Below, piece after piece: positions 786-55,700 of a DNA stretch of 57,856 nucleotides. Every line of letters begins with the position of its first letter. Positions within the stretch are counted from its first letter, which is position 1. The DNA is taken from NCBI GenBank assembly GCA_001275005.1, contig JWZX01003305.1:1-57856 (forward strand), read 5' to 3'. A program made the translations under genes and the position numbers. This DNA comes from Chrysochromulina tobinii. Lineage: Eukaryota. The notes under the pieces are model-generated. The model was not told the origin of the DNA. It ran no database searches and worked only from the letters and a program-made list of their open reading frames with translations.

Positions 786-3148
786 ATGTCCGCTTCGCTT
801 TTCCATCTTGATGGCGGCGGCGTCAACGGCGGCTTTGGGGCCCGCCCATCGACAGCGCGTGGGAATCTGTCGTGGATGAGACACGTCGCAGCCCAGTGGC
901 AGCCCAGTGCGGCTGCGATCGAGGCGGCTCACCTTGCTCTGACCACCGACGCGGGCTACTCAGTTGCTCAGAAGCGCCTGTGGGCACTAATATCCGAGAT
1001 CAAAGCCCTCTCATCGATGCTTTCCCCCGCCGACTATCGCGCGGCTTCGGTGCACCTCTCGGTGCTTGCAGGCCAAGCACCGCCAGAGCCCCTCGTGCAT
1101 CACGAGGAGCGACCGCACTCGCCAGGTCATCCAGGCCGTGCGAGGCTCTCGCTCACGCCTCGCTCGCCCGCCTCGCGCTCGCCCCTCACCACTCGTGCCA
1201 CTCCAACGGTGATGTCCAAAACTTCCCCCACTAGTTTTAGGCCGCCCACACAGCGGTCAGCCTCCCCCTTCCGGCCGAGCTCGATGCGCCCCGGCTCGGC
1301 CATGCCCGCCCCTATTCTGGCGGATATCAGGCTCGCCGGCTCGGAGGCGCGCCCGATTGTCGACGATGGCTCCGCCGTTGGCAAATGGGTTGCCAACCGG
1401 CTGGGGGCCGTTGAGCAGCAGGTACGCGACTGATTGCCACTGATTGCCACTGATTGCCACTGATTGCCACTGATTTCAGATGGGCGCCGTTGAGCAGGTA
1501 CGCGAGCTGCACGAGCAGGTGCCCCGTGCTCCCTCTCCGCAGACCATGCTGCAGACAGTTGGGTCCTCGGGCCGCGCCCTCGTCGGCTCCGGCATCCGTC
1601 AGCGCCAGTGTCGTGGCCTCCGCCGCAGTGAGCTCCGAGGACGTGGGAGTGCAGCCGGCTCGTCTCGATGGAGACCCCACACTGTGGGAGGTACGTGACG
1701 TGGCTGAGTGGCTCCGGCTGTACGCTCAGCTCAGCGTGGCGCAGGTACGCTCGGCGATTGAGGAGCATAGCGTCGCATGCGGGCTCGACTTACTCGCGCT
1801 CGATGACGGCGACTTGCACGCTCTCGGCCTGACGCGCGTCGCCGAGCGCAAGCAGCTGTTGCGGATGCTGGCAGCGCTACGCCTGCGTGCGCGGCGCGCC
1901 GTCTCGGAGGCACGCTCCCGCGTCTACTGCGTCGCGCAGCAGCACCGTCTAGCGGCGCTCTCGGAGTGCGTGCACGAGGTCTTGGTGCATAGCTGCGACA
2001 CGCTCAACCTCAAGACGCAGCGGCTGCTGGTGGCGCTTTGGTCGCAGTGCGAGGGGCTGGGGGAAGATGCGCTAGCTCGTGTGGAACGTGATGCGACGGC
2101 TTGGCGCGTGCGCGAGCAGGTGATTGCCACTGATGGCGTCTGATTGGGGTCTGATTGCCACCGATTGCATCTGTGTAGCATCTGTGATTGCCACTCATTG
2201 CATCTGATGGCGTCGGATGGCGTCTGATGGCATCTGATGGCATCTGATGGCTTAATTTGATGGCATCTGATGGCATCTTATCGCATGCGCGAGCAGGCTA
2301 TGGTGGACGAGAGGCAGGCAGAGACTCGCACCATCCTCGAGCGCGAGATGAGAGCGCGCGCCGAGTGCGAGGACTATGCGACGGAGCTGCAGGAGCGGCT
2401 GAGGCTCGAGAGGATCAAGATCGACATCTTGCTTGAGGCGGTGCCCGAAATCACGGTGACGGGCGAGCGCACGGTGCCCGATGCGGAGAGAGACCCGGCC
2501 GGTGCACTGCAGTGGGCGCAGGAGTACTCCGCGTTGATGGAGGAGGCCAAGGCGCGGCACGCGAGCGGCGCGCTGCCATCCAATGGAGGGAACGCGCTCG
2601 AGGGGCCCCAGCACCAGCATTTCAACCCGGTGACGCCTGAGCACTGGGCCGCGGTGCCTGCCAGCCTAGGGCTCGAGCTGCACCAGGCGGGCGCCGCCCT
2701 GGGCGAGTTGGTCGATGTGACCCTCAAGGAGCGCGCTGCGATGGCCAAGCACTTTGTCGAGGCCGAATGGGTCGTCGCGGACCTCAACAAGGCGCACCTC
2801 GCAGCACACGACGCTGCCTTCCGCGCGGCCCTGCATCGGCCAGGGGATGAGAAGCTGCACGACGCTGCATTCAAGCACGGGCTCGAGGGCAAGCCGGCGC
2901 CTGGACTGCCCCAGGTTCAGAAGCACCGCAAGGCCTCGGCAGCCCGCGACGAGCACCTGGCGCAGCTGAGCGCCGAGACAGCGCCGCTGCCCGGGTCGCC
3001 CTCGAGCATCACCCAAGGGTCGCCTGGTTTGCCTCGCTCACCCAAAGGTGGACCGCCCGGCACTCCCTCGAGCATCCAAGCGCGCCGGATTGACAAGGAG
3101 CTCCAAAAGTCAAAGCTCGGGCAGCCCGCCGCGGGGGGAGCAAGCTAA
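786..3148 (+). CDS. SAM-domain and coiled-coil protein, multi-exon (introns 1422-1497, probably 1519-1654, and 2120-2296)
   Basis: ORFs 711-1433, 1480-1698, 1454-2143 and 2270-3148 join in frame across GT-AG introns. WEVRDVAEWL...GLDLLALDDGDLHALGLTRVAERKQLLRML is a SAM signature. The start codon and the middle intron are uncertain. Confidence 0.65.
1422..1497 (+). other. Intron with (TGATTGCCAC)x4 filler between two copies of GCCGTTGAGCAG..GTACGCGA
   Basis: GT at 1422 and AG at 1496-1497; direct repeat at 1407-1429 and 1486-1505; removal restores the reading frame. Confidence 0.8.
2120..2296 (+). other. Intron with TGATTGCCAC/TGATGGCATC decamer filler; its 3' end duplicates the upstream exon end
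   Basis: CGCGTGCGCGAGCAG|G at the donor versus CGCATGCGCGAGCAG|G at the acceptor; in-frame join VREQ|AMVDE. Confidence 0.8.
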
Positions 3149-3511
3149 GGAGCAAGCTCATGAACGTGCCCAGCAGAGCGCCAAGGTTGGCCCTTTTTGG
3201 CCCTCCGCGAGAGAGCGTGCTCGGGCGAAGAGGAAGGACGCGGCGGGCGGGGGGGGCTGAGGGGCGGTGTGTCGGTCGGTGGACCCGGCTCCAGGTGAGT
3301 CTCGATTTGATGTTTACTAGATTATGTGAACGTTGTCCACTCTCCAACCCACTCAACACTCTGACCAGGGGACGTTTCAGTTCACACCTGCAGAGGTCAT
3401 TCACACCTTCCATTCGGCGCCCTCGACTTCGCGGGCGCGTCGGGACCAAACGACTGCACCAGGCCGTGAATCTCGTCGTACTGTGCCTTTCCTTGCCTCG
3501 GATACGCCTAG

Positions 3512-24017: not shown

Positions 24018-25202
24018 CTATTCCTTGGTAGCCTGCCACTTCACGTAGATGCGTCGCAGCTCCTCGACAGCCAAGAACATCGCGACGGTATGCCTGCGAG
24101 CAGCGCGAGTGAAGGAGGGCGTGAGAGTGACCGGATCGGCGCACACAGACATGCATTCACAGGGACTCAAGCATGCATTCACAGGGACTCGTCGGGAGCG
24201 CCGACAGCGCGCGCGCAGGCGCGGCGGGCGCACCCTCCGCAGCGCCCATAATAGGGCAATCAAGGGCAATCAAGTGATATCGATGGAGATCGATGGAGAT
24301 CGATGGAGATCGATGGAGATCGATGGAGATCGATGGAGATCGCACCCTCCGCAGCGCCCATAGTAGGGCCAGAAGCCGTTCCAGAGCGCGAGGACGCCCT
24401 CGGTCCGCGCGATCGTGGAGACGGTCTGCACCGTCGACTTGTACGGCAGCATGCCCGCGGCGTCTGCCTTCTGGAACGCCATCCTATTCTTCGCAGTCTC
24501 CAGCGGCATCGTAATCACCGAGTAGATGAGCCCAGCGGACATGGAGGAGCTGACCGTGTTGCTCAGGCCGTTGCCGAGGTAGGGCGCGTACAGCTGCTTG
24601 AATTGGTCGTACGTGGCGACCTGCGTGCCGCCGACCACCATCGCACGCGTCACGAACGGCTGTGAGCCTCTGTAAAAGGCGCTGAAGCCGTCCTCGCGCG
24701 CAATGCGGACGATGGCGTCGAAGACCGAGCTGTACCCGCGGCGCTGTTGCACCGGTAGCGCCGCATCATTCGACATGCGCACGAGGCACACCTCGATCGG
24801 GCACGAAATGATCGCTGCGCAGCCGCCGGCCACAGAAGCAGTGACGAAGCGCTGCGCAAAGTCCGTCTTGCGATACTTGGCGAGAATGTCGCGGAAGGTC
24901 TCGAAGAGGCCGTAGCGCGAGGTCGCATAAAAGACCTGGCGCAAGCAGCCGGCGCCGAGGCCCGCGTACAGGCTGCCGAAGCCTTCTTGCTTGATGATAC
25001 CACTCGCGAAACCCAAGGTGGATTTTGGAGGTGCTTGCGACATTGCCGCGAGGTTCATTCTGATGGCTAACGTGTTGAACGGATGGATAAAAATCCAGCC
25101 GATGACGCCGCCGAGGCCGGAGGTGCCGAAGACGACCGATCCCGGGAGCGGCGGCGGAGCGGACGCGGGCAACATCGACTGACGACGCCTGAACTCTGCC
25201 AT
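24018..25202 (-). CDS. Mitochondrial 2-oxoglutarate/malate (dicarboxylate) carrier; exons 25202-24346 and 24093-24018
   Basis: Three PxxxxxxR carrier repeats; LRQVFYATSRYG; RAMVV; QVATYDQFKQ; the spliced C-terminus reads YYGRCGGHTVAMF. Confidence 0.9.
24281..24340. repeat. Intronic (CGATGGAGAT)x6 array between 29-nt direct repeats
   Basis: Direct repeats at 24229-24257 and 24341-24369 (1 mismatch) span the exon end and the donor site. Confidence 0.9.
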
Positions 25203-25675: not shown

Positions 25676-27902
25676 ATGGCTGCGGAAGTGGAGACGTTCG
25701 CCTTCCAGGCTGAGATCAACCAGCTCATGTCGCTCATCATCAACACCTTCTACTCCAACAAGGAGATCTTCCTCCGCGAGCTGATCTCCAACTCGTCGGA
25801 CGCTCTCGACAAGGTTCGCCACCAGTCGCTCACCGACAAGTCGGTGCTCGACGCCAACCCGGAGCTGTACATCCGCCTCGTGCCGGACAAGTCGAACAAC
25901 ACGCTCACCATCATCGACTCGGGCATCGGCATGACCAAGGCCGAGATGATCACCAACCTCGGCACGATCGCCCAGTCCGGCACCAAGGCCTTCATGGAGG
26001 CCATGTCGGCGGGCGCCGACATCAACATGATTGGCCAGTTCGGCGTCGGCTTCTACTCGTCGTACCTCGTCTCCGACAAGGTCATCGTCACCTCGAAGCA
26101 CAACGACGACGAGCAGTACATTTGGGAGTCGTCCGCTGGCGGCTCGTTCACCGTGCGCAAGGACGCCGAGGGCGAGTCCCTCGGGCGCGGCACCAAGATC
26201 ACGTGCTACCTCAAGGAGGACCAGCTCGAGTACCTCGAGGAGCGCCGCCTCAAGGACCTCGTCAAGAAGCACTCGGAGTTCATCAACTACCCGATCTCCC
26301 TCTGGACCGAGAAGACGTAAGGAGATTGCCTGCTGATTGCCTGCTGATTGCCTGCCTCATCATGGTGAGCGTCGTCCTCGAAGCATGCAAGCGCTCACCA
26401 CAGCGCCATACTCTCCTCACAGGGTCGACAAGGAGGTGGATGACGACGACGACGACGACGATGAGAAGAAGGGCGACGACGGCGATGAGCCCAAGATTGA
26501 GGAGGTTGAGGAGGAGGAGGAGAAGTCGAAGAAGGACAAGAAGAAGAAGAAGGTGAAGGAGGTCACGCACGAGTGGGACCTGATGAACAAGCAGAAGCCC
26601 ATCTGGACGCGGAAGCCCGAGGAGGTGACCAAGGAGGAGTACGGTGCCTTCTACAAGGCTCTCTCCAACGATTGGGAGGAGCACCTCGCGGTCAAGCACT
26701 TCTCGGTCGAGGGCCAGCTGGAGTTCACCTCGATCCTTTTCGTGCCCAAGCGCGCGCCCTTTGACCTCTTTGAGCCCAAGAAGAAGAACTCGGGCCACAT
26801 CAAGCTGTACGTGCGCCGCGTCTTCATCATGGACAACTGCGAGGACCTGATCCCCGAGTGGCTCACCTTTGTCAAGGGTGTGGTCGACTCGGAGGACTTG
26901 CCGCTGAACATCTCTCGCGAGACGCTGCAGCAGAACAAGATCCTCAAGGTCATCAAGAAGAACATCGTCAAGAAGTGCATTGAGCTTTTCGGCGAGATCC
27001 AGGAGAACGCTGAGGACTTCAAAAAGTTCTATGAGCAGTTTGGCAAGAACGTCAAGCTTGGCATCCACGAGGACAGCGGCAACCGCGCGAAGCTGTCGGA
27101 GCTGCTCATGTACTTCTCGACCAAGAGCGGCGACGAGCAGACCTCCCTCAAGGACTACATCTCGCGCATGCCGGAGTCCCAGAAGGACATTTACTACATT
27201 ACGGGTGAGACGAAGAAATCCGTCGAGACCTCGCCCTTCATCGAGAAGTGCAAGAAGCGCAACTACGAGGTCCTCTTCATGGTGGATCCGATTGATGAGT
27301 ACTGCGTGCAGCAGCTCAAGGAGTACGATGGCAAGAAGCTCGTCTCCGTCACCAAGGAGGGCCTTAAGTTCGAGGAGTCCGAGGAGGACAAGAAGGCGTG
27401 GCAGGAGCTGACGGCCGACTTCGAGCCGCTCGCCAAGCTGATGAAGGAGATCCTTGGCGATAAGGTGGAGAAGGTCGTCATGTCCGAGCGCATGACCGAG
27501 TCGCCGTGCGTGCTCGTCACCGGCGAGTACGGCTGGACCGCCAACATGGAGCGCATCATGCGCGCCCAGGCGCTCCGCGACAACTCGATGTCGTCGTACA
27601 TGGCGTCGAAGAAGACGATGGAGATCAACCCGAAGCACTCGATCATGAAGGAGCTCAAGGCCAAGGCCGCCGCCGACAAGGGCGACAAGACGGTCAAGGA
27701 CCTCGTGCACCTGCTCTTCGAGACCTCGCTCCTCACCTCGGGCTTTTCCCTTGATGAGCCCGCCACCTTCGCCGGCCGCATCCACCGCATGATCAAGCTC
27801 GGCCTCTCGATTGAGGACGACGACGAGGTCGACGACGTCGAGGAGCTGCCGCCTCTCGAGGAGGATGCTGACGAGGGCTCCAAGATGGAGGAGGTCGATT
27901 AA
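25676..27902 (+). CDS. HSP90: Cytosolic heat shock protein 90; exons 25676-26316 and 26423-27902
   Basis: [45 protein letters not shown]-terminal MEEVD; GT-AG intron 26317-26422. Confidence 0.98.
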
Positions 27903-31477: not shown

Positions 31478-32760
31478 ATGGGCTTCTTCGGCGCCAAGCC
31501 GGACAAGGAGCCTGACTTCAATCCACCGCTCGCCGGCAAGCCGTACGAGCTGATCTCCTTACTTGGAGGCCCGCTCGGCGACATAGCTCACGATCAGCAG
31601 GCGCTGGCCCGCGCGACAGCACTTGCGAACGGCCCCGAAGCGGCCACGTTTGGCTACCTGCTGCTGGATGTCAAAGGCTGCCTTGGCCGCTTTTGGAAGC
31701 AGGTGTACGCGGTCATCGTCAAGGGCGCCGTGTACATCTTCGAGTCTCCCACGGCGGAGCGCACGCTGCGTTTGCTTGCCGCCAGCGACTGCGAATGCGA
31801 GGTGGGTGAGCGTGAAGAATGCAAGGCCGGAGTGTACTGCTTCCGGTTGAAGCACGCGGATGGTTCTGCAGCGTTTTGCGCCTTCAACTCGAAGGCGATG
31901 CTGCTTTGGTTGCAGGCGCTTCAAACGGGGGGCGTCAAGTACGAAGACCCACCCGTCGACGTCGGCAACACGCAGTCTCTCTTCGAGCTGCGCGCGACGC
32001 TGCTTACGGGTGAGGAGATCGACTTGGACCGATACCAAGGGTGCGTGTGTCTGGTGGTGAACGCGGCCTCTAAATGAGGCCTGACCCCTCGCAACTACAA
32101 GGAGCTCGTGACCCTTCACGAGACCTTGTACGCGCGAGGGCTCCGCATCTTGTGCTTCCCATGCAACCAGTTTGGGAGTGCGCGGCTGCCCGCACACACA
32201 GCTGCCTGGCCGTCTCGTGACCGCACACACGCTCCTCGACCTCCTCTCTTGTGTGCCTGGCAACTCCCTCCACATCGCCTGTCTGTCCATTCGTGTGACC
32301 GGGGTGCGATCGTCGCCACGGTACGTTCACAGAGCAAGAGCCCGGCACAGCGGCAGAGATTCGCACCTTTGTCGACGGTTACGGCGTCGACTTCGACATG
32401 TTCGCCAAGGTGGAGGTCAACGGCCCACGCGCGCACAATGTCTTCCGCTTCGTGCGCGCCGCGCTCCCGGATATCCTCGGTAGCTCGATCAAGTGGAATT
32501 GGACCAAGTTCGTTTGCGATCGCGACGGGCGTCCAGTGAAGCGCTTCGCGCCGCCGACGAGCCCGCTCGCCCTGCTGCCTACGATTGAGGCGCTCCTCGA
32601 GGCGCGAGAGCCCTCAGGCGGCATGCTGCCGACCCCACGCGCGATCGTGGGCGCCAGCGAGGCGGCCACGTCCTCAATGCCTCTCTCGACGACGGCTGTG
32701 GAAGCGCCCGTGGAGGCTCCCTCGCTCCCGCCCCCGCCCCCGCCCGCCGAGCCCATCTGA
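31478..32760 (+). CDS. PH-domain + glutathione peroxidase selenoprotein (Sec UGA at 32075-32077); exons 31478-32177 and 32333-32760
   Basis: PH: FGYLLL...FWKQVYAVI...YCFRL...MLLWLQAL. GPx: LVVNAASK-UGA-GLTPRNY, ILCFPCNQFGKQEP, MFAKVEVNG, IKWNWTKFVCDRDGRPVKRF. Confidence 0.9.
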
Positions 32761-32827
32761 GGCACGGGCTAGGGGATGGAAGAACGCACGGCACTCCGCT
32801 GCCCACGTGAGCCACGAGCCCAAGAAC

Positions 32828-32910
32828 GGTGCGAGCGATATGATGAGCAGCTCTCCCAAAGCATCGCACTCACCGTAGGCGATGCGGAGGCCGCTCGGAG
32901 TCTCAATGCC
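32828..32910 (+). promoter_or_regulatory. Eukaryotic SECIS element (type II) in the GPx 3' UTR
   Basis: ATGA at 32840-32843 opposite GA at 32898-32899; helix GAGC..CTCTCC / GGAGG..GCTC; unpaired AAA at 32858-32860; apical stem GCATCGC/GCGATGC. Confidence 0.8.
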
Positions 32911-33239
32911 GAACGCGCACCTCTCGGGACCACCATGGCCTGGCGAGCCGCGTCCGATCGGATGCACACTCTCTGTGTGGAAGCCGCAGGCACGAATCTG
33001 AATTCCCGCCGAAGCCGGCACCAGTGCAAGCATAAATAATTTTATCGCGTGCCGGGGTTGGTGGGGGTTCGAGCCACTAATAACTTTTCCGTAAGCAAAA
33101 CGACTAACGAGCGACCGCGAGTGCGTTGAGTGACCGCTATTTAGTGTACCGACAGCGGCGCGCTACTGCACGGCACCTTCAGTGTGTAGTACGTATACGT
33201 ACGCAGTAGCGTAGTGCAGCCCTAAGTAGCTTCTGCGCG

Positions 33240-36200
33240 TCACTCACGCGTCGCCCTCTGCTTCTCCCGTGGCCGCAGCAAGTATAGCCCGCCAGCTTCC
33301 GCCGCGACTGTGACGCGAGGCGGCTGCGCGTGCGCCGCGCCCTCCCAGATCGCCTGCGCGGAGGCTCCGCCCTTGGACCTCGTCTCGCACGAGCCCCATC
33401 GCATATTGTACACGTAGCCGCGGCAGTGGGGAGCGGCGGCTGGGCACCGATCTTGCACCGGCACATCGGTGCCGGTCTGGCCGCAGCAGGCGGTCGCGGA
33501 GCCGTGGTCCGCCGCGCAGCGCTTGGCGGCGAGCGCGTGCGTCCCCTCCGTGGCGACGAGCTCTGCGCTCATGGGATTGAGTCCAATCGCAGCCCAGTCC
33601 ACGTGTAGCATGCACTCGGCGTCGTTGGGCGCCCACGAGCCCAAGGCGACGAGTGTGGCGTGTGCGTAGCGCACGTAGGCGGTCGCGAGCACGAGAGCGC
33701 AGCCCTCACCGTCGGGGACGACGCGCACCGGCGGCGCGCGCTCCCAATAGCCAATCATGGTGGCTTGCCCGATTTGGAAGCTGTCCCACACCTTCCAAAT
33801 CGGACGTGGATCGGCCGTGCGGAACCGGGTGGTCATGCCGTAAAGCATGCCGCGCCACGGGTGCCCCTCCTTCATCATGTCGCCCATCAGCCCAAATGGG
33901 AGGCCCGACACCTCCGCGAGCCAATACGCGGGCTGCTCTGCGTAGTCGTACCCCTCCCCGAACCAAAGCGAGTCGATGTACGGCATCAGGTGCATGAACT
34001 GCAGTGCGGGCTGCACCATCCCGTACCTGATGAGGGGTGCACTCAGGCATGCCATCAGTCGCAATCAGTCGCAATCAGTCGCAATCAGGCATGTAATCAG
34101 ACGCTCCACATTGCACGACGAGAGATGCACTCAGGGACCATCAGACGGGCCAACAGCCGCCACGACGTACTGCGGATGAAGGTTGTTGCCGCAGTGAAGA
34201 TCAATGAGCGCCCGCCCCGGGCCCTTTTCGGCCTCGAGGACGCGGCGCACGCGGCGCATCGTATGACGCCCAAAGGCGATCCCGTCATAGTAGATGCCGT
34301 CGAGCCCCACGGGCGGGCGCACCTGATGAGGGAGGCGATCAGATGTCATCGGAGGTGATCAGTGGTCATCAGAGGTGATCAGTGGTCATCAGAGGTTATC
34401 AGTGTCGTCGAGCCCCACGGGCAGGCGCACCACACGGCGCAGCCCCTCGACGTAGTAATTCGCCCAACGCGAGATCCCTTGATTACACAGCGCCGAGTCA
34501 AACTCGCCACTCGAGAGGGGGTTCTGCCAACACGGCGCGTAGTGGTCGACCACGTGCTCGTTGACCCACGGGTCGCCGCCGCCGTCGCCGTCGGCGAGCA
34601 CCTCGTCGCCGAGCGACTTGAGCACGAAGAGCTCATCGGCGTGATTGGAGAGCTCGCGCACCTGATTTTGGAGAGGAACTCATCAGAGTCTCATCATGGA
34701 CTCATCATGGGCTCATGATGGACTCATCAGGAACTCATCAGGGACTCGTCAGGAACTCATCATGGACTCATCATGGACTCATCATGGACTCATCATGGAC
34801 TCATCAGAGACTCATCAGAGACTCATCATTGACTCATCAGAGACTCATCAGAGACCCATCAGAGACTCATCAGAGACTCATCAGGAACTCATCATGGACT
34901 GATCATGGACTGATCATGGACTGATCAGGAACTCATCAGAGACTTATCAGGAACTCATCATGGACTCATCATGGACTCATCAGGGACACACACTCAGCGA
35001 GTCACTCAGAGGTCCTCAGCGTGATCCGAGAGCTTGCACAGACCGTGTAGTACGCCTTGACCCGTAGCTGACGCGCATGGGCGCGCGCCACGTACGCCCC
35101 CATCGCAGTGGTCGAGTGCTCCGAGAAAGGATAGTTGATGTACGGATTGAGCGGCCCATCGACCCCCTGATGGATGTTGAGGACGGTCGCGCCGGATTTG
35201 GCAACGTCCTCTGGCTCGACGAGCCGCGTGTCTGGATAGCCCACTTGGTAGTAGCGCTGCTCCCAGTGCGCCGCCGTGTTGAGCGGCTTACACGGCGTGA
35301 GGAGCAGCTCGAAGCGAAACTGCACCGAGCTGCCCGGGAGCATCGTGCGCGCGCCGCCGTGAGCACGCAGAGCGGCCTGCCCATCAATGCGCACGCCGCC
35401 GCGCCCTCGATTGTGCCACCCTTCGGGGAGATCTCCCTCGCTCATCAGGTGCTGCGCCGATTCAAACGCGCTCGTCTCCCCCACCAGCCGCACCCGCACG
35501 CCCGCGCGCACATCGCCGAGCCACGCCATGTAGTTGCCGAGCCCTGCAGCCCAGTGCCACGCGAGGGGCGTGTTGTTGTGCAGCGCTCGCGCCGGCCGGC
35601 CGAACCCCATCAGGTAGCGCGCGATCTCGGCGTCGAGATCGACGAGCAGTTCGCTCTCCGTCAGCGCCACGGGCGCGAGGTTGGTGCGTGGCGCGGAGAG
35701 CGTGAGCGTGATGATCGCCTGCGAGTCGAACCACCACTCGCCGTAGACGTCGAGCGTGAGCACGTCCCACGCCGTGCCGGGGAGCACGCTCGATTGTAGC
35801 TGCGCCGCCCACCGCACGCGCTCGATGGCACTCGGAGGCGCTGCATTGAGCGCTTCGAGCTTCGCCCACGGGGCCGACGAAGAGGCGGCCTCGACGGCAC
35901 TGAGCACGCGCGACGGAGTGGCCACTCGCCACTGTACTAGTCGATCCTCGACGGCGCCCTCTCGGCCAGGCCTCCTCTCAGCGCCGCCAAACTCCCGACT
36001 GTTGTCGTCAGCGACGCTGAGAGGAGGCCTTGAAGCGCCCCTCCGGTCGCCGCCGGGCAGCACACGCACGTTGAAGCTGATCGGGCGATCAAGGAGCGCT
36101 CGGCGGCCGTCTGGGCACTCGATGCAACTCGACCCCCTTGCAAGGCGTCGGGGCGCCGTCGCGGGCGACTCCGCGGCCGCAGGGGCCTCGTGGCACTCGA

Positions 36201-37241
36201 CGCAGGCGTCGGCCGCGCCGCCAGCCGAGCCAACGGTCGGCGGCGGCGGCTGCTCAGTCGGCGTCCGTCCGGCAAAGAGCTGCGTAGGGAGGCCGCCAGC
36301 TCCGATCTCGAGGCCGCCCATGAGCGCCGCGAGCATCAGCGCGGGCGCCGTGTGAGCTGTGCCTGGGATCATGGGGCAGGCCGCAATGAGAGAGGTCATC
36401 AGAGGTCATCAGTGGTCATCAGTAGCACTCACCTAGGATCATGGGGCAGGCCGCAATGAGAGAGGTCATCAGAGGTAATCAGTGATCATCAGTAGCACTC
36501 ACCTAGGATCATGGGGCAGGCCGCAATGAGAGAGGTCATCAGAGGTAATCAGTGGTCATCAGTAGCACTCACCTAGGATCGTCCCAATCCCAGCGTCCAC
36601 CCATGCCGCCACCTTTTCGAGCGTGCCCTCGCCACCCGGCTCGATGCTGACAGCGCTCACGGGCACGAAGGGCTTTGGCAGAGCTGGTGTGCTGCCCGCC
36701 GTCGAGTCGAGCCACCGGAGCCGCGAGAGGCGCCAGCGTCGCGAATCGCCCGCATCCGTCACCGGCGGACCATGCAAGGAGAGACGGAGCCGCGTGAGGA
36801 CCTCGGCTTCGTCAGCCGGGGGAGGGACTGCCGCGGCTCCATCGGGCCCGGCCGCCCCGGCCGCCCCACTTGAGGAAGGCACGGAGGAGGCGAACGCGTC
36901 GGCATCGGCGGCGGTGGAGGAGGTGGAGGGCGACTCGGTGCGCAGCCTGAGCCGCACGCTCAGCTCGAGCGTTGAGCTGAGCGCTTGCGAGGCTGCCGCC
37001 CTCCCCATTGCGGACGATTCGAAGTCGAGAGGGCCGCGGCGCTTGGTCCCGTCGGCCACTTGGCCACTCGGCAGCTGCACGCCGAGCCAGAGCGAGCGCA
37101 CGCAGCCGCGGCGCACGAGCGGTTGCATGCGGATGCGTACGCCGTCAAAGCCCACGCCGTGTGTGTGGAAGCAGTGGAGTCGCACAGCCGAGCTGTTGAG
37201 TGGAAGAGCACTCATGGGCGCCATGATGGGCGCACTCGGAC

Positions 37242-37283
<42 letters not shown>

Positions 37284-39184
37284 GGCTGCGGGTGCTGCTA
37301 GTGCTGGTGCTGCTAATGCTAGTGCCCTCGGGAGCGTCGGCATCGGAAAAATCTCCGGCCAAATCTCCGACCGAATCTCCGGCACCGTGCTCATCCGCAG
37401 CCGTGGGCGCGGCGGCCGCGGTGCCGCCCTGAGCGCCGTTGGTTCCCGGCGCGTACCTGTGGGGAAGTGAGGGCGCCGTGGTGAGCGCTCGCATGCAGAT
37501 TGCCGTTGGCTCCCGGCGCGTACCAGCTCGCAGAGGCGAGTCCGCAGTCGAGCACGCGCACGTCGAGCGTCTCGGGCGCGAGGACGCCCACCTGCCAAAC
37601 GTAAAACTCGCCCAGGCGCGCGTGGGAGTAGAGCCCACTGGTAGGTCCTCGTCTCGCCCATCGTTCAGGAAGCTCGCAGCCCGTACCTGTGGGGAGGAAA
37701 TAGCGCCGTAAGGAGCACATGCATGCAGGGCCCAGGCGCGGATCGAGCGTCTCGCCCTTCGTACGTAGCACGTGAGTGCGCGACTCTGGGAATAGGTGCC
37801 AGCTGTGAATGCGTGGCGTGCGTGAGGGCGGCGCGCGCGTGTCACCACCGGGCACCCGCAGACGCCGTCGCGCGCGCGCCGCCGCTGTGACGGAGGCGGC
37901 CTTGGCGGCGGCCTTGGTGCCCATCACGGCGCTGCTCAGCATGCTGGCGAGCTCAGCGGAGGTCGCGGGTCTCTCCATGTCGCCGAATCGATCTGAGTGC
38001 GTGCGGGCCTGCACATCGAAGACGCGCACCACGGGCAGGCGCGCCGCACTATGTGCATGCGCCCGATACCACGCTTCGTCAAACGTGGGCTGGTACGCCT
38101 CATAGGAGGTGCCGTGCGCGTCGTCCCGGGCGTCGTAGGTCTGCCATTTCGTCTGGTGCGGCAGGTAGTAGAGGTCGTACTCCCCCGCCCCGTGGGTGGG
38201 CTCGAAGAGCACCTCGGCGCTCTCGCGTCCGTCGACCAGTAGGGCGACGTTCTCAACACGGCCCGATTCCTTGACATAGTACCGGTAGCTCCCATCGCCG
38301 TTGCTCCCTTCGTAGCTGTGGCTGCGGGGCGCGCCGTGCTGCGCACTGCCTTTCTCGTGGTACAGGTAGAGCTGCGTCCCTAACGGCCGATGGCGCCGGC
38401 GCCACGGGATGAGCGCTCGCACGGCGCGGGCGCGCGCGTCGGCGGCGGTCACGAGCAGCCGCGCGCGCACGTTACCCAGGCTACGCCTCGACGCGCCGTA
38501 GCCGCCGTACGGCGGCTCGTGCCAGGCGGGGCCGAGGATGGCGTTGCGCGCTTCGCGTCGGATGAGCAGCGCCGCGGGCATGCTCGTGACCGCCGAGGCG
38601 TGTGGGATGGCCGTGCGCCACGCGAGATCCGACGGCTGATGGTCGTGCTCGCTGCAGTGGGAGTAGATCTCGTATTCACCTGGCCCATGCTCTGGTTCGA
38701 AGACGAGGTGCCCGTCCACTGGGCTATGCTCTCGAGTCGTAGCCAAGGCAAGCTCGACGTTGCGCACGCGCATGCCCGTGAGCGCGCTGTAGACGCACGG
38801 TGGCGCCACCTGCGCAGCCTCTGCGCTGTACGGCAGGTCGCTGCCGAGCCAGAAGCGCACATAGATCTGCATCGCCGAGCACAGAGAGGACACTGCGCTC
38901 CGCCGCCGCCGCCTCCGGCCAGAAGGCAACCGAGTGCGAGACGTTGCCTGCCACCATGAATGGCCGGGCGCCGGAGGAGGTGTACTCGGGCACGAGCGCC
39001 TGCTGCGGTTGAACGAGCGGTCGGACCATTGCGTCGCGGGTCCTCCTGCGTCTGATCTATCCAAAAAAGTCAACTCTATGATTCGTCCGTCGCGGCGCGC
39101 GCGGGTCGCCGATTTCGTGACGCACGACTGGAGCAGCTCGGCAAGCAAGCAAGCAAGCAAGTAGCTGAGCAGCTCGGGGGGCAT
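33240..39184 (-). CDS. DUF6067 (putative glycoside hydrolase)-like secreted protein; 7 exons, introns 37687-37764, 37457-37523, 36363-36572, 34662-35043, 34323-34430, 34027-34170
   Basis: Spliced motifs IPWRRR, YDLYYLP, WRLSRLRWLDST, NIHQG..LNPYINYPF, KAYYTVRELSNHA, RWANYYVEGL, GLDGIYYDGI, LIDLHCGN, YIDSLWFGEGYDY, WRGMLYGMTTR; every join keeps the frame. Confidence 0.8.
34677..34983. repeat. About 300-bp intronic array of GACTCATCA(G/T)-type 10/11-nt units
   Basis: Directly visible tandem units inside intron 34662-35043. Confidence 0.9.
36363..36572 (-). repeat. Three head-to-tail copies of a 70-nt complete intron unit (GTGAGT...GATCCYAG)
   Basis: Units 36503-36572, 36433-36502 and 36363-36432 are near-identical. 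Confidence 0.9.
37457..37523 (-). mobile_element. Putative introner-like intron (family A 3' cassette) with a 22-nt duplication of the downstream exon
   Basis: The intron starts GTACGCGCCGGGAGCCAACGGC and the next exon starts GTACGCGCCGGGAACCAACGGC; its 40-nt 3' end is shared with three other introns in the window. Confidence 0.55.
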
Positions 39185-42580: not shown

Positions 42581-43844
42581 CTACGCTGCTCCCAGCAGTC
42601 CGCTCTTGGTGAGGTACTCCTCGCCGAGCTTCCAAACGACCGTAAACAGGGCCGCTTGGAGCGCATTGGTGACGAGCCTCGTGCCGAGGCCCCGCCCGAC
42701 GAGGCCTTGCCAGCCGTCAGTCTCGAGGATTTGCTGTGCCGCCTCGCGGTACGTGATCGTCGTCTCCGACGTCTGGCGCACCTGATGAGGGAGGCAATCA
42801 AGCTGATGAGGGAGGCAATCAGCGAGCAATCACGCTGATGAGGGAGGCAATCAAGCTGATGAGGGAGGCAATCACGCTGATGAGGGAGGCAATCAAGCTG
42901 ATGAGCGCCGCGCGTACCGTCTTGAGCACGCGGATCGAGTTCGAGATTGTGTCCGAGACGCCGGCGGCCGCGATGCCGAGCACGGCTGTACGCGCGAGCT
43001 TGAGCGGCAGGTCCTCGCCAAATGTTGGCAGCATCTCGTTGAGCGAGTTGAAGGTCAGATACCAGGGGTAATTGCCCACGAAGCTCGCGGCCGCATTGGC
43101 AAGCGCTCCTTGGAAGAGTACCCCAGGGCCCTCCTCTTTGACCTTGGCGCTTACCTGATCGTACCCTTCCGCACCCTTCACCTGCAGGGTAGTCTTCAAT
43201 GTGTCGATTGGGGTGAGCCCGATGCGCCACGCCGCCGCCGCGGCGGATGCGAATGCTGTGCGCACGCCCACGGGCAGCGTCGAGTCGGCGAGCAGGGCAA
43301 GCACGCCCGTGTTCGCCGCTGTGTCACCAAAGCGTGAGAGCGGCGTCTGGATCAGCGCAAACGACACGCCGCGGTAGAAGCGCCGCAAGCCGCCCTCAGC
43401 GTACAGGGCGGCTAACGCATCGCGCGTGCTGCCGCCGTTGCGGTACTGGTAGTTCATCGTCGTGCGCAGCCACATGAGCAGCAGCACCTGCACGATACCC
43501 GCGAAGAAACCAGAGATGCCGCCGCCGAGCGCCTTCTTTGCCGCCGTTTCGAAGATGATCGATGGCGGTAGCACGGCTGTAGCCGCTGCGGTCGCGCTCG
43601 CGGCGTGCACGGGCTCGACCAGGCTGAAGCTGGCAGCAATGACCAGCAGTGAGAGGCTGGCAGAGACGGCGGCGGCAGCGGCCGACGGAGGAGGCTGCGT
43701 GAGCACGAGCGCGTCAGTCTCGTCATCTTGCGCCGGTGCAATGCAGCGCAGCTGCGAAATCCGCTGCGGGGAGCGGAACTGCAGGGGAGGCAGCAGCGCG
43801 CTCGAGCTCACGAGCTCAGCCAAGAGAAAAGCGATTTGCAGCAT
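42581..43844 (-). CDS. Mitochondrial-carrier-family protein with a bipartite plastid-type leader; exons 43844-42918 and 42781-42581
   Basis: LMWLRTTMNYQYRNG; PLSRFGDTAAN; PIDTLKTTLQV; SNSIRVLKT|VRQTS; RGLGTRLVTNALQ. Confidence 0.85.
42782..42917 (-). repeat. Intron built largely from 21-nt TGATTGCCTCCCTCATCAGC(T/G) units
   Basis: Five near-complete units, each containing a CTCATCAG acceptor-like site. Confidence 0.85.
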
Positions 43845-49771: not shown

Positions 49772-51394
49772 ATGGAGATTTCTTCTAATTCGAGAGCAAA
49801 CCACCTCGTGGCCCTCTCCTTCCTCGACTCGCTCGAGCCTCCGCTCGCTACCAATTCTCGCCAAGCCCTCCTTTCCGCACTCGAGAGCTCGGGCCAAGGC
49901 CTCTCATGCCTCTCGCGCTTGGACGGGGACGCGCTCAAGGAGATTGGCGTGGTGTCCCCCATGGAGCGCGCGAGTCTGCTCGCGGCGGCTGCGGATGGTG
50001 GGGTGATGGCGCCGCCGCCCAGGATGGACCCGCCAGGCCCGGTCGTGGTCGAAGTGAAGTTCGGCTTCATAGAGCTCTCGGCGATCGACACGATCAACCA
50101 GAGCTTCCGCTGCCGCTTCTTCCTCGACCTCACCTGGGAGGATCCGCGGCTCATCGGCGCCTCGTCGGTGCCCGACGGGACGTGGTTCCCGAAGGGCGTC
50201 TACATCATCAACGCGCATGGCGCGCTCGACATCGCAGCGTACTCCAAGCCGATCCTCGTCGACAGTGCGACGGGCCGCGTGCTGTGGGCGCAGGACATCC
50301 AGGGAGCCATCACCAACCAGATGAGCCTCGCGGCATTTCCTTTCGACACGGACGTGCTCGAGGTCTACGTGCACCAGGCCGAGGAGGCCAGCCGCGACGA
50401 GTACGTGCTCAGGCCCTACGGCGGGGGGTGGAACGGCTACCGCACGCGCAGCTCGGAAGAGACGCTCGAGCTCGAGTCCCGGAGCACGCAGTGCTTCTTC
50501 GACGTGTTCACGTGGGTGGACGAGTGGAGCGTTGGCGGCTTCTCTATCGAGGCGTACGAGACCGTGGGCGGCAACGGCGTCGAGTACTCGGAATGCCACC
50601 TCTATCTGCACGTGGCCCGGCGCTGGACGTACTACGCGTGGAAGATCGTGCTGCCGCTGTGCATCTGCACGGCCTTCTGCCTCACCGCGTTCCTCTATGA
50701 GGCGGAGGATCTCGCCAACCGCAACGGCATCTCGGTCACCATGTTCCTCGCCACCTCGGCGCTGCTCTTCGTCGTGGCCGCGCTGCTGCCCAAGACCTCC
50801 TACCTGACCGCCATCGACCGCTTCGTGGTGCAGACTCTCGTGATCCAGTTCGCCATCGGCGTGTGGAGCTGGCTCATGTTCGCCGTCGTGCGCGTGCGCC
50901 TCGACGAGGGCGCAAGGGACCGGGCGGACCTGGTCGCCTTCCTTGTGCTCGCCGGCGCGTACGTGCTCTGCGTCTGCGCCTTCTTCTGGAGGCCGTTGCT
51001 CGCGGGGAACGTGACGGACCACGGCCGCCACCGTCTCCTCGCGCGGCAAGGGGCGCTGCTCGAGAGGCCCACGCCGCCACCGCCTGGCCCGAGCGGGCAC
51101 CATCTCGACTCGGGCAGGATGGGTGACGAGGACGAGACGCGGATGACGCGCTTCCACCGCTTCGAGATGGGGCGCAATGTCTGGCCTCGAAAGGTCCCGG
51201 GCGAGCTCCCCGTGAACATGCTCCAACCGCACTGGAGCCGCAAGGAACCAGGGAGCCTGAAGGTTACTTCTGTGGAGCGGCTCTCACCCGACGAGTTCAC
51301 GAAGAAGGGCGGTTATGCTGGGGTGAAGGTAGCCACAACGAGCAAGGCATTAGAGCGGGCGAGACCTCGGGAGGCTGACCTTCATATGTGCTGA
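49772..51394 (+). CDS. Cys-less pentameric ligand-gated ion channel with an N-terminal SAM-like domain
   Basis: IDTINQSFRCRFFLDLTWEDPRL; WFP; SLAAFPFDTDVL (Pro-loop without the Cys pair); YYAWKIVLP; LPKTSYLTAIDRF; four TM segments. Confidence 0.85.
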   Translation: MEISSNSRANHLVALSFLDSLEPPLATNSRQALLSALESSGQGLSCLSRLDGDALKEIGVVSPMERASLLAAAADGGVMAPPPRMDPPGPVVVEVKFGFIELSAIDTINQSFRCRFFLDLTWEDPRLIGASSVPDGTWFPKGVYIINAHGALDIAAYSKPILVDSATGRVLWAQDIQGAITNQMSLAAFPFDTDVLEVYVHQAEEASRDEYVLRPYGGGWNGYRTRSSEETLELESRSTQCFFDVFTWVDEWSVGGFSIEAYETVGGNGVEYSECHLYLHVARRWTYYAWKIVLPLCICTAFCLTAFLYEAEDLANRNGISVTMFLATSALLFVVAALLPKTSYLTAIDRFVVQTLVIQFAIGVWSWLMFAVVRVRLDEGARDRADLVAFLVLAGAYVLCVCAFFWRPLLAGNVTDHGRHRLLARQGALLERPTPPPPGPSGHHLDSGRMGDEDETRMTRFHRFEMGRNVWPRKVPGELPVNMLQPHWSRKEPGSLKVTSVERLSPDEFTKKGGYAGVKVATTSKALERARPREADLHMC

Positions 51395-51560
51395 AGCCGG
51401 TGACGCTCATGAAGTTGACGTGTCGGGCCTCTCGGCATCCAGACCCGTTGCACGTGTATACTGATCCAGGCAAGATCGGGCTTGTCGCGCGCACGGAGCG
51501 GCGGCGGGATGAAGTGCACAAAGAGAGCCGACTCGGGTACGACCACAGGCTGCTCCGCGG
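51363..51560 (-). pseudogene. Frameshifted 198-bp copy of 28599-28795 (fragment of the 28191-29153 gene)
   Basis: Near-identical sequence with a 1-nt insertion (GTGTATACTGATCC versus GTGTGCACGATCC). Confidence 0.85.
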
Positions 51561-52715: not shown

Positions 52716-55700
52716 TCAATCCTCGTCGGTCGCCCCGTCGTCCTGAGCGTGCGGCTGAGCGGCCGCGGCGTCGGTCGCGCTTGTAACGGCGCTCTTGGCG
52801 CTCCTGGCTCGCGCGTACGTCGCCTCAGCGGCCTGGCAGATGGCCTCGAGCTCGGCGGCCGCGGCCGCGTCGTTCTCCAGCTCGTACGCATGCATGGCCG
52901 CAGCCTCCCTCGCCTCGGCCTCGGCTTCAAACGCCTTCTGGACCTCGGCCGCGGCGGCAGCCTCGGCCGCCTTCGCCGCCTCCACTGCTGCCGCCTCCGC
53001 CTCCGCCCCCGCCTCCGCCTCCGCCTCGGCCGCATCCTCAAGGGCTATACGAGGCCAGGTGGGGGGCGTCACGGCTGCGTCGCCGCCTGTGGAGTTCACA
53101 TGCATCGTCGCCGCGCCGCCAGCAGAGTTCACAGCAGAGTTCACAGCAGAGCGGCTTTCCTCATCGTCCGGCGTGATGCTCAAGACGGCGCTCGGAGTGC
53201 CCGTGACGGTCGCGTGTGAATCCTCGACGCGACGGCAGCGCTTGTGCAAGTAGCCGAAGACGTCGGCATAGTGGCCGGCCTGCCCGGGGTGCGGCGACGG
53301 GTAGTCGCGCGGCTTGAACTTGCACAGCATGCTGGCGAGCGTGCCCACAGAGCAGTCGAGCGCACGCAGCCGCCTTGTAACCACCTCCAAGCCAGCCGCG
53401 AGCCGCTCATCGCCAAAGGTGAGGTAGTGGACGCACACGCGCCCGGCGAGCGATGCCGCCATCCACTGGATCATCGCTTTGAGTTGCAGGTCGCCGCCGA
53501 AGGCGCCGCAGCCCCAATTGCCCGTGACGATCGGGGGCAGTGGCGCCGCGGCGACGGCGCCAATGGGTTCCCCGTCGAGAGCGCCGTCACGAGCGCCGAG
53601 GAAGCCGACGTACGCCTTGTTGAGCTCCCGCTCGATGGCGCCGGATGAGAATTGCCGCATCACCTGGGAGCGCTCGTACTGCGTCGCGTCGATGGCCACC
53701 AGGTGGGGTCCCGGTGCGGCCGGATCGTCTTCATACGGTCCGGCGTACCTGTGGGGAGAGGGACGGGGCGCCGTGAGGAGCACTTGCATGCGGATGGATC
53801 GTCCCCGGACGGGTCGGCGTACTCAAAGGTGCGCGCGTAGCCGCGGTAGCTTGAGAACCGCTCGACGCCCTCGAGCAGGAGCGCCTCGTGGTCCTCGAGA
53901 CTCTCGGCGAACGCTCGCGACACGATGAGCTCGGGGCTCAGCAGGAATCGGATCTCCTCTTGCACGCACCTGAGTAGGGAGGCAACCATATGCACTCAGA
54001 GGCACACTCAGGGGCAATCATGGGCACTCATGGGCACTCAGGGGCACTCAGGGGCACTCAGGGGCACTCAGGGGCACACAGCGGTACTCAGGCTCCTCTG
54101 CTCACCCGTTGCGCAGCACGCCGCCGCCAATCGAGCGGTTGGCAAAGTCGAGTTGCAGATGCGACCGGTCGGCATCCTCGATCGTGCCGTCGGCGCGCGC
54201 GTGCACGGGGCAGAGCGGCACGTGCACCGCGCCGCGCCAGAAGCTCTCGAGCTGCGTCTCGGAAGTGTCGAGCACCAGCCGCTCGAAGCTGATCAACCGA
54301 GGTGAGGGCGCAGCGGAGGACGAGGCGGCAGCGGCAGCGGGAGCAGCCGGCGCGGCGACCGCCCTGATCCACTCCATCACCTCCGACCACGAGACGACCG
54401 ACACAGTGCCCCTCATGTAAGCGACTGCCGATTGAGCCTCGTGCCACTCGGCGGCACGCATTGGACCCTCGTCGTCGTCGTCGTCGGGCGGCTCGGGCTC
54501 ACACAGCAGGTGCGTGCAGCCGCTCATCTCGACGCGACCCACGGTGAGCGCGCCGTGCAGCCGCAGCTCGTTGGCCATGTCCTCGTGCTCCTCTGCGGAG
54601 AAGCCGGCCAGGGCGAACACACTCCCCGCCAGCGCATAGGCCGTCTCCACGGACGGCGGCGTCGTTGGCGGCGGTGGCGGAGGCGTCCACGGCCGCCCTG
54701 CGGCGGCGCTCGATTCGGCGCGCGCGGCCAGCCGCTCAAAGTAGCCGAGCAGGCAGCGCAGCTTCTGCGGCTGCGTGGCATTCATCTTCGAGTGCGGCGC
54801 ACGCGGTGGCTCGAGGGGACCGAAGAGGGGCCCGCAGTCAAAATAAGGCAAGTCGGGCCCCCGCCCACCGGCCCCGTGGGCGCGCCGCCCCCCCTGGTCG
54901 GCGCGGAAGGGCATCGAGGAGAAGAAGGCATGCGCGAGCAGCGCGGCGCATTGGTCGGGGTGCAGGCTCACTCGCTCGGCACGTCCTTTCAGAAGGAGTG
55001 GCAGCGGGCGCGGGCAGAGGCGCGGCAGTGCAAGGGCGAGGCGGCACATGTGCGGCAAAGTGGCGTCAAAGAAGCGGCGGCGCTCGTCCGCGCTACATTC
55101 ATGCTCGAGGAACTCATGCAGTGCCTCGAACGTCCAACGGCCACCGACGGCCTTTTGGATCGCACGCAGGGCTCCGAGCAGCTTGAGGGTGCTCGAGGGG
55201 GGTGGCGAGAGGCGTGCGCACAGGACGTGCCAGAGCGGCACGCCGGCGCCCTGCCTGCTCAGGCATCGCGGCGAGCACGGCAGGCGCACGTGCTCGCAAT
55301 CCCACGCGTCCACGTACCATGGCGGCAGCTCAGCCTCGGGCGGCAGCGGCGGCAGCAGGACCGACTGTGCTCCGCCCGCCGCCGCGCTCGCCGCCGTCGC
55401 GTCCGGCTCAGCCGTGGGGAAGTCGGGCGGCTCCGCAACCTCCACATCGGTATCTCCGTCTTCGACGACCAGCCGAGGCGCTGGCACCGGTAGCACAGGC
55501 GGCACCGGCAGCTCCGGCACCGGAATGGTTGCGGCCGCCACCACGGGCACTGCTGGAAGGTGCTCGACTCCAAGGACCGTCTGTAGCGCGGCGTACGTCA
55601 TGACCGTCAGCCCGCTCGCGCGTGCGATATCTTGCGCGGCAGACGCCGCCGCCAGAAGCTGTGCATCGTCGGGCGCCTCGTCGTCCACGAGTAGATGAGT

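What the first reader, a model, noticed from the sequence alone, without database searches (positions are those of the whole stretch)
1407..54105. Recurring intron architecture: exon duplication plus repeat filler, suggesting an active intron-generating system
Seen: many introns in unrelated genes have a boundary that copies the adjacent exon. Examples: 1422-1497 (about 20-nt repeat straddling AG|GT), 2120-2296 (16 nt, 1 mismatch), 24094-24345 (29 nt, 1 mismatch), 34323-34430 (25 nt, 1 mismatch), 37457-37523 (22 nt, 1 mismatch), 34662-35043 (about 29 nt, decayed), 36363-36572 (8 nt), 53749-53822 (8 nt), and 34027-34170 and 37687-37764 (GTACG, 5 nt, weak on their own). Between the copies lies either a decamer array or a shared cassette. 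Known: tandem duplication of AGGT, double-strand-break repair and introner transposons are proposed routes to intron gain, and DNA-transposon introners have short fixed-length TSDs. Inference: duplications of variable length (5-29 nt) with a range of decay and no terminal inverted repeats point to staggered-break filling or a target-primed mechanism that co-opts the duplicated exon GT/AG, acting repeatedly over time.
Basis: partly seen in the sequence, partly recalled or inferred. Interest (0 to 1): 0.85.

Follow-up and report, generated by a model that had tools for sequence, protein, structure and literature searches.

The report
Introns copied from neighbouring introns
In this haptophyte alga many introns consist of a 20-45-base duplicate of the adjoining exon plus a short filler that often matches a nearby intron of the same gene, and some such units are present in one strain and absent in another, which likely means that DNA-break repair is copying intron ends into new sites and creating introns today without a transposon.

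Summary
The window is haptophyte DNA. RNA contigs splice 6 of the 10 listed segments at the stated GT..AG ends. Eight carry a clearly significant exon copy, 36363 has a short one and 34027 none. In 129 related loci, 189 of 292 cassette copies (null 0.8%) and 96 of 181 decamer arrays (null 0.5 expected) sit in direct repeats of median about 30 nt. The duplication is long; two of the listed '5-8 nt' cases are decayed long copies. There are no terminal inverted repeats. New: units are present or absent between assemblies 98% alike, and one strain-specific unit is an exact copy of an intron end 524 nt downstream in the same locus. Neighbouring copies resemble each other far beyond chance. Best reading: staggered-break repair with microhomology-primed copying of a nearby intron end, with selection keeping spliceable products. 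Copying from the gene's own RNA is the main rival. Corrections: 24094 is an insertion into an older intron, and 36363 is a triplicated unit.

The parts
1422..1497 (+). Candidate intron; duplication straddles AG|GT (about 26 nt, 3-nt gap); CTGATTGCCA decamer filler
2120..2296 (+). Candidate intron; filler carries the donor, a 16-nt copy of the upstream exon end supplies the acceptor; decamer filler
24094..24345 (-). Spliced intron of a mitochondrial carrier gene; 29-nt duplication plus decamer filler inserted at the donor of an older intron (second copy internal)
   Evidence: RNA joint, skip 252
26317..26422 (+). HSP90 intron holding decamers and a cassette core (26383-26406), no significant boundary copy
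   Evidence: RNA contig X19 record 9 skips this region
34027..34170 (-). GH123-gene intron, decamer filler ending CCCTCATCAG; boundary copy not significant
   Evidence: RNA joint in one run
34323..34430 (-). GH123-gene intron: 28-nt copy of the downstream exon from GT, plus decamer filler carrying the acceptor
   Evidence: RNA joint
34662..35043 (-). GH123-gene intron: decayed 33-nt exon copy plus 11-mer array; older, shared with relative P0121
   Evidence: no RNA joint listed
36363..36572 (-). GH123-gene intron made of three 70-nt units; absent from the read-through protein P0121
   Evidence: RNA joint, skip 210
37457..37523 (-). GH123-gene intron: 22-nt exon copy plus cassette (core 37473-37496); absent from P0121, present in L123
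   Evidence: RNA joint in two runs
37687..37764 (-). GH123-gene intron: decayed exon copy with 20-nt deletion plus cassette (core 37703-37726); shared with P0121
   Evidence: no RNA joint listed
42782..42917 (-). Spliced carrier-gene intron built of 21-nt decamer-acceptor units; no significant boundary copy
   Evidence: RNA joint, skip 136, two runs
53749..53822 (-). PARG intron: decayed 34-nt exon copy plus cassette (core 53768-53791)
   Evidence: RNA joint in 4 of 4 runs
53970..54105 (-). PARG candidate intron with decamer array; no significant boundary copy
   Evidence: removal restores the frame; outside the stretches laid with RNA

Best explanation
These are spliceosomal introns built of a 20-45-nt duplicate of the flanking exon and a 25-100-nt filler, and they likely arise when repair of a staggered DNA break copies the end of another, often nearby, intron into the gap. 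Steps: (1, inferred) two nicks about 30 nt apart leave overhangs, and both are kept, giving the duplication. (2, inferred from junctions) One 3' end primes through 1-10 nt of microhomology on another intron, often within about 2.5 kb on the same strand. It copies the branch-point cassette and pyrimidine tract, or a decamer tract, and rejoins. (3, shown for window examples) When the copied piece ends in YAG and the duplicate begins with a donor-like GT, or the duplicate itself holds AG|GT, the unit is spliced out exactly and the protein is unchanged. (4, inferred) Selection removes other exonic products, while acceptor-less products survive in introns and non-coding DNA. Each new intron becomes a template, so the family propagates without a transposase. 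The long repeats also let units multimerise or be lost precisely.
For: Long repeats far above permuted controls: 189 of 292 cassette cores, 96 of 181 decamer arrays, median 28-30 nt. Empty versus filled alleles: L009/L085 (81 nt, perfect 33-nt duplicate) and L019/L018 (78 nt), both at 98% identity. The L085 filler equals, over 50 nt, the end of the intron 524 nt downstream as it reads in the empty-site assembly L009. The L018 filler shares its linker and pyrimidine tail with the L019 version of the intron 650 nt downstream, with two differences in the core. The L047 extra unit joins through about 10 nt of homology to the adjacent intron. Near pairs within 4 edits: 14 of 237 versus 0.76 expected, 0 of 2000 permutations; the best match is local for 41 of 145 elements versus 1.4% expected. 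Microhomology to the consensus: mean 1.5 versus 0.8 nt (85 events). 203 distinct tails among 234 copies, i.e. many templates. No TIRs and no class truncated at the branch point (110 full cores, 1 partial). Acceptor-less copies have the same long repeats with no GT preference by eye. Overhang breaks give tandem duplications experimentally (PMC8355091 passages).
Against: No enzyme was identified and no genome was available. Most events have no local template of 20 nt or more within 2.5 kb (at most 20 of 59 core and 12 of 62 decamer events had one), and a genome-wide conserved 24-nt core with a sharp 5' edge looks like a dedicated element. Local templates are almost all same-strand (20 versus 2; 12 versus 0), and the cases I could polarise by eye beyond 130 nt had downstream donors, as nascent RNA would predict; the unbiased count showed no side bias (7 versus 9; 5 versus 6). 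A whole intron was copied 1.2 kb without a long duplication (L047/L011). Presence/absence could be precise loss between the repeats. Both polymorphic units are 3n long and stop-free in at least one frame, and their splicing is untested. Gene conversion could add to local similarity.
Confidence: 0.55

Rival explanations
1. RNA-templated copying in cis. A nick on the template strand primes reverse transcription on the gene's own nascent pre-mRNA or excised intron, starting at or near the 3' splice site; a second nick about 30 nt away gives the long duplication (TPRT-like). Occasional reverse splicing copies whole introns.
For: Same-strand, same-locus templates. Fillers of intron-forming copies end at the acceptor (183 of 234 tails end TCCCCACAG, partly by search design). 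Donors polarised by eye lie downstream (L085, L018, L072, L048, L059, L041, L047). Exact GT-to-AG whole-intron copy in L047/L011. Variable long TSDs are typical of target-primed retrotransposition (own knowledge).
Against: No stall at the branch point. Upstream and adjacent templates and simple slip-back duplications occur. Antisense copies exist (L126; relative P0132). No RT motif in 0.82 Mb of loci and window by a crude regex. No side bias in the unbiased count.
Confidence: 0.28
2. A non-autonomous transposable element (introner) of about 45 nt, mobilised in trans by an unknown transposase or non-LTR/Penelope machinery that makes 20-45-nt TSDs.
For: Conserved 24-nt core with a sharp 5' edge, many dispersed copies (23 in 194 kb, biased sample), copies outside splice contexts with TSDs. 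Introners are known in haptophytes. The earlier scan note e1-2577349 reads it this way.
Against: No TIRs. No fixed TSD length. Tails differ between almost all copies and donor flank is carried along. The same duplication lengths flank unrelated decamer and locally derived fillers. Kinship follows genomic proximity.
Confidence: 0.12
3. Ancient introns whose ends were secondarily overwritten by duplication or gene conversion; empty alleles are precise losses between the repeats.
For: Nested insertions at existing donors are common (24094; many). Long direct repeats make precise deletion easy. 37687 and 34662 are shared with a relative.
Against: In class A introns the duplicate plus the filler is the whole intron (65-102 nt, n=81). 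Perfect duplicates occur in 42 of 136 core events. Age order fits decay: the clean 37457 is absent from P0121 while the decayed 37687 is present. Homologues at 34-47% identity run through these positions as single proteins (their gene-calling method is unknown).
Confidence: 0.05

Closest known systems
Intron gain by staggered double-strand-break repair in Daphnia pulex (PMC4202315; passages read)
   Same: New, polymorphic introns with a direct repeat of the adjacent exon; secondary nested insertions.
   Different: Daphnia repeats are 4-12 bp and the source of most inserts is unknown. Here repeats are about 20-45 nt, fillers fall into two recurring families, and donors can be traced to neighbouring introns.
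Introners / introner-like elements (Gozashti 2022 bioRxiv 10.1101/2022.06.06.494994, passages; Gozashti 2025 PMC12130899 section 6 and supplement rows; Roy 2020 bioRxiv 10.1101/2020.10.14.339549, parts 1-2 of 4)
   Same: Repeated intron family; one splice site carried and the other co-opted from the duplicate (like P. glacialis classes 4/5 and 6/8/10); found in haptophytes, including a 5-copy E. huxleyi family listed as 'co-opt 5', carry 3'' with '10bp terminal direct repeats'.
   Different: TSDs described there are fixed at 3-8 nt per family (4 bp in the Chrysochromulina sp. example, which carries the 5' site). Here they are long and variable and make up about 40% of the intron; there are no TIRs; copies are heterogeneous and related by proximity. 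C. tobinii scored 0 families in the 2025 table. I could not see the E. huxleyi sequences, so that family may be the same kind.
Tandem genomic duplication of AGGT and intron transposition (review PMC3443670, passages)
   Same: 1422-type events take both splice sites from a duplicated AG|GT; the L047/L011 whole-intron copy within one gene fits intron transposition.
   Different: The duplication here is interrupted by copied filler that supplies branch point and length. Most events copy only an intron's end.
Tandem duplications at 3'-overhang breaks and Pol theta templated insertions (PMC8355091, passages; templated insertion mostly from own knowledge)
   Same: Duplication the length of the overhang, microhomology at junctions, locally templated filler.
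   Different: Known templates usually lie within tens of bases of the break (recalled); here they reach 0.1-2.5 kb, and the product is a functional intron.
Replitron-1 of Chlamydomonas (PMC10288648 section 9 part 1)
   Same: Variable-length TSD, orientation-specific insertion at a dinucleotide, flank of the parental copy carried along.
   Different: Replitrons are 0.9-3.6 kb with terminal direct repeats and a Rep transposase; none of this is seen here.
10-11-bp tandem repeats in Emiliania huxleyi introns (Read et al. 2013; recalled, paper not held)
   Same: Decamer/undecamer arrays in haptophyte introns (period 10 in 956 and 11 in 198 of 1311 spacings).
   Different: I recall no link to target duplication or intron gain there; not checked.

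Membership tests
Spliceosomal (U2-type) introns | GT..AG ends removed exactly from mRNA | tested here: met
Introner (broad sense: repeated, recently spreading intron family) | Similar intron sequence at many unrelated sites | tested here: met
   24-nt core in 292 unique sites, but only the 3' 45 nt is shared and tails vary
Introner (broad sense: repeated, recently spreading intron family) | Presence/absence among close relatives | tested here: met
   2 clean cases plus 1 extra unit among 8 orthologous locus pairs; polarity not fixed by an outgroup
TIR DNA-transposon introner (MITE type) | Terminal inverted repeats | tested here: not met
   4 of 100 core fillers with 5 nt or more (control 3.8%), none with 7 or more; 1 of 81 decamer fillers
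TIR DNA-transposon introner (MITE type) | Short fixed-length TSD | tested here: not met
   10th-90th percentile 21-41 nt
Non-LTR / Penelope retroelement product (TPRT) | Variable TSD, fixed 3' end, 5' truncation with microhomology | tested here: inconclusive
   Variable TSD and weak microhomology met; 3' end fixed only in intron-forming copies, variable in acceptor-less ones
Non-LTR / Penelope retroelement product (TPRT) | Autonomous RT-encoding partner sharing the 3' end | not testable with these tools
   No genome held; a regex over 0.82 Mb found no RT motif
Fungal introner-like elements | Stable RNA secondary structure | tested here: not met
   z-scores -0.29, 1.00, 0.55, -0.72 for four cassette sequences; -1.99 for one decamer filler
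Staggered-DSB (Daphnia-type) intron gain | Direct repeat of the adjacent exon at the opposite intron end, above background | tested here: met
Staggered-DSB (Daphnia-type) intron gain | Unique, non-family insert; repeat of 4-12 bp | tested here: not met
   Of 216 acceptors with a long exon copy, 110 hold the cassette and 75 decamers
Pol theta-mediated templated insertion | Dependence on Pol theta | not testable with these tools
   Needs genetics; presence of the gene in this organism not checked
Replitron | Terminal direct repeats and Rep HUH transposase | tested here: inconclusive
   The 45-nt unit cannot code, and no element-internal terminal repeat is apparent in the sequences; no partner search possible

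The most novel reading that the evidence does not exclude
Spliceosomal introns in this haptophyte lineage are self-propagating without any transposon: an intron's 3' end or decamer tract is copied into a staggered break elsewhere in the same gene, possibly from the gene's own nascent RNA, and the 20-45-nt target duplication supplies the rest of the intron. This would be a distinct, ongoing, genome-scale route of intron gain in which parent and daughter introns can be read side by side in living populations.
Probability: 0.6. Interest if true: 0.9.

Novelty: new variant of a known kind. Interest (0 to 1): 0.8.

Why it matters
Where the sequence of new introns comes from is a long-standing open question; reviews and the Daphnia work note that most gained introns have no identifiable source. 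Recent surveys credit transposons. Here the footprint is unusually legible: a long duplicate that works as a clock, empty alleles in close strains, and donors a few hundred bases away. Clustering pipelines that need end-to-end similarity would tend to miss such introns, because about 40% of each is site-specific exon copy. With apparently hundreds to thousands of events per genome (rough inference) in a cultured organism, DNA- versus RNA-templated intron gain becomes directly testable. It may also explain the decamer-rich introns of haptophytes.

Tried and rejected
That biases frequencies, so I re-scanned flanks without the GT requirement and without any filler assumption. The viral contig scan gave 0 hits. 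Rfam gave no meaningful match for 10 loci. Folding shows no special structure. The first read-laying at 85% likeness was swamped by repeats and its joint table was cut, so DNA runs X5 and X21 gave no usable presence/absence result. A downstream-donor bias suggested by hand-picked cases was not borne out by the unbiased count. A mean-distance test for local kinship was negative (Mann-Whitney P 0.28); the signal lies in the tail of near-identical pairs. No periodicity in duplication length is evident by eye. Acceptor-side microhomology beyond the ordinary donor consensus was not seen. Of 16 pair alignments set up, one was skipped for size and seven were paralogous or non-overlapping, leaving 8 orthologous pairs. 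Ten to twenty redundant overlapping loci were dropped before the counts. The 66 'no acceptor' rows include multimers and gapped intron copies, so that number is not a count of acceptor-less insertions. An assembly artefact is rejected: the joints match GT..AG ends and the units recur in many independent assemblies. One search had start coordinates off by one; replace it. Ten paper searches showed no listing describing long-duplication, neighbour-templated introns; the library lacks most subscription papers, two supplement files of PMC12130899 were not searched, and the PMC9860276 table was cut when stored, with most of its 214 Chrysochromulina mentions unread.

Full report
ORIGIN. The window is eukaryotic, GC-rich DNA. 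Its HSP90 N-terminal half is 94% identical to Emiliania huxleyi and 93% to a Phaeocystis protein, so it is a haptophyte; I did not determine the genus. No whole genome is held. Host genes include two mitochondrial carriers, a GH123-family gene, PARG and a SAM-domain gene.

OBSERVATION. All ten segments have GT..AG ends. RNA contigs join exactly across six: 24094-24345, and 34027-34170, 34323-34430, 36363-36572, 37457-37523 and 53749-53822. Removing the six GH123 introns opens 1539 codons, and homologues align across the junctions without extra residues. Against coding-sequence draws, eight of ten have a clearly significant exon copy. Two 'short' cases are long and decayed: 53749 matches at 26 of 34 nt, and 37687 has a copy broken by a 20-nt deletion. 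34027 is not significant. 36363 is three 70-nt units with an 8-nt boundary match. At 24094 the second copy is internal: filler and duplicate were inserted at the donor of an older intron, and RNA removes the whole as one 252-nt intron.

BEYOND THE WINDOW. A cassette pattern (3 hits in the window, 0 expected) fetched 129 metagenome loci, 763 kb. Of 139 unique acceptors, 92 have a GT-starting copy of the downstream exon scoring 10 or more (permuted null 0.24%) and 58 score 20 or more. Without demanding an acceptor, 189 of 292 cores lie in direct repeats (null 0.8%; median 30 nt, 96% identity). A filler-blind scan gave 136 cassette, 99 decamer and 137 other events, with median repeat lengths of 28, 29 and 27 nt. 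For decamer arrays, 96 of 181 have flanking repeats against 0.5 expected, peaking at 25-40 nt with few short ones. Of 216 acceptors with a long exon copy, 110 hold the cassette and 75 decamers.

ANATOMY. The commonest type is exon | GT-starting duplicate | 0-20-nt linker | core GCATGCAAGTGCTCACCACGGCGC | variable pyrimidine tract | CAG | exon. In 81 such introns the length is 65-102 nt (median 76), frames are 26/25/30, and 71 have G before the donor. The core is over 90% conserved from position -8 and falls off sharply upstream; it contains a CTCAC motif that I infer is the branch point. Decamer events use the same geometry with an acceptor often ending CCCTCATCAG, or straddle AG|GT (1422), or carry the donor (2120), or nest at an existing donor (24094). 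There are no TIRs, no special folding and no Rfam match. Acceptor-less cores have the same long repeats, so GT/AG placement looks like selection rather than targeting (inference).

RECENCY. Among 8 orthologous locus pairs from different assemblies, L085 has an 81-nt unit with a perfect 33-nt duplicate that L009 lacks (98.2% identity), and L018 has a 78-nt unit that L019 lacks (98.4%). L047 has an extra 95-nt unit against L011, and L016 a dimer against L055. P0121, a read-through gene call at 89% identity, runs into the decayed 37687 and 34662 introns but is contiguous at 37457 and 36363. P0132, about 90% identical over exon 1, is contiguous at 1422. These protein arguments assume that the calls were made on unspliced DNA. 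Caveats: precise loss gives the same empty allele, and the two clean polymorphic units are 3n, stop-free in at least one frame and of untested splicing.

SOURCE OF THE FILLER. This is the new result. The L085 filler is identical over 50 nt, including 6 nt of donor flank, to the intron end 524 nt downstream as it reads in L009. The L018 filler shares its linker and tail with the L019 form of the intron 650 nt downstream. Among 237 same-strand pairs 130-3000 nt apart with unrelated exons, 14 in 9 loci are within 4 edits against 0.76 expected (0 of 2000 permutations), and for 41 of 145 elements the best match in the whole set is local (1.4% expected). Fillers match 20 nt or more of same-strand DNA within 2.5 kb on 20 sides of 59 cassette events (4.6 expected) and 12 sides of 62 decamer events (0.6 expected), against 2 and 0 antisense. 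One whole intron was copied 1.2 kb upstream without a long duplicate, its 5' part betraying the exon it came from. Against this, most events have no local match, and mean distances do not differ between near and far pairs.

MECHANISM. I favour repair of staggered breaks with microhomology-primed template switching (0.55). It accounts for equal duplication lengths around unrelated fillers, carried donor flanks, slip-back multimers, passage through the branch point and the lack of fixed ends. Breaks with 3' overhangs give tandem duplications experimentally (PMC8355091, passages). Copying from the gene's own RNA (0.28) fits the strand bias, the acceptor-flush ends, the downstream donors seen by eye and the whole-intron copy; the unbiased count shows no side bias. 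A trans-mobilised mini-element (0.12) fits the conserved core but not the local kinship. Shown: architecture, splicing of window examples, polymorphism, local kinship. Inferred: break geometry, template type, enzymes, role of selection. My confidence that recent intron creation of this architecture is real is about 0.9.

COMPARISON. Daphnia neointrons have 4-12-bp repeats and mostly unknown sources (PMC4202315, passages). Described introners have 3-8-nt fixed TSDs. The 2025 survey lists 0 families for C. tobinii and one 5-copy E. huxleyi family with 10-bp terminal direct repeats that may be related (supplement rows). The C. tobin and Phaeocystales genome papers say nothing on this in the passages found. 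Decamer-rich E. huxleyi introns are recalled, not checked. It agrees on the footprint, is not independent support, and its visible summary mentions neither polymorphism, local donors nor the decamer class. Ten searches found no description of this combination, within a library that lacks most subscription journals.

VERDICT. A real, active intron-generating process; a new variant that combines staggered-break duplication with intron-end copying. It fails the tests for a TIR introner. Interest 0.8.

Noticed in passing
window 38863: The window has one base more than three RNA runs near the start of the GH123 gene; likely an assembly error or allele.
   Followed up: no
window 711-3148 (+): SAM-domain gene: after removing 1422-1497 the frame still shifts between about 1519 and 1655, so a further intron or error lies there.
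   Followed up: partly
protein P0132 (relative of window 711-1765): Reads through what look like antisense decamer tracts, one flanked by a duplicated peptide, at a place where the window has none; suggests antisense filler insertions in a relative.
   Followed up: partly
window 28599-28795 and 51363-51560: About 200 nt duplicated 22.8 kb apart at 99-100% identity.
   Followed up: no
window about 25280-25330: Short high-copy intergenic element with very high depth and many loose ends in DNA runs; similar sequence flanks a repeat in L016.
   Followed up: no
L047 (core at 1366-1389) and L011 (2004-2027): Whole intron copied about 1.2 kb upstream within an FtsH-like gene (name recalled from the Walker A region), without a long duplication: a candidate case of intron transposition.
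   Followed up: partly
L034, L016, L031, L053, L001, L041, L070: Tandem multimers of duplicate-plus-cassette units create back-to-back introns with internal CAG|GT sites, candidates for recursive splicing.
   Followed up: no
many loci, e.g. L003, L005, L079, L112: Decamer insertions often end their duplicate a few bases past an existing donor; donor-like GT lay within 22 nt upstream of 95 of 181 arrays versus 52 in the control.
   Followed up: partly
decamer-type acceptors, e.g. window 34323 and 42782: The acceptor end CTCATCAG is the reverse complement of the repeat core CTGATGAG, as fold-back synthesis would give (sequence; folds them together).
   Followed up: no
window 31862-33031: An RNA-run contig spans the glutathione-peroxidase-like gene (name recalled) without removing its candidate intron near 32178-32332, so low-depth contigs in these runs may be DNA or unspliced RNA.
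   Followed up: no
L019, L043, L044, L050, L041 ('other' class): Long duplications around 20-45-nt fillers made of short locally repeated units, with no cassette or decamer; resembles iterative templated insertion.
   Followed up: no
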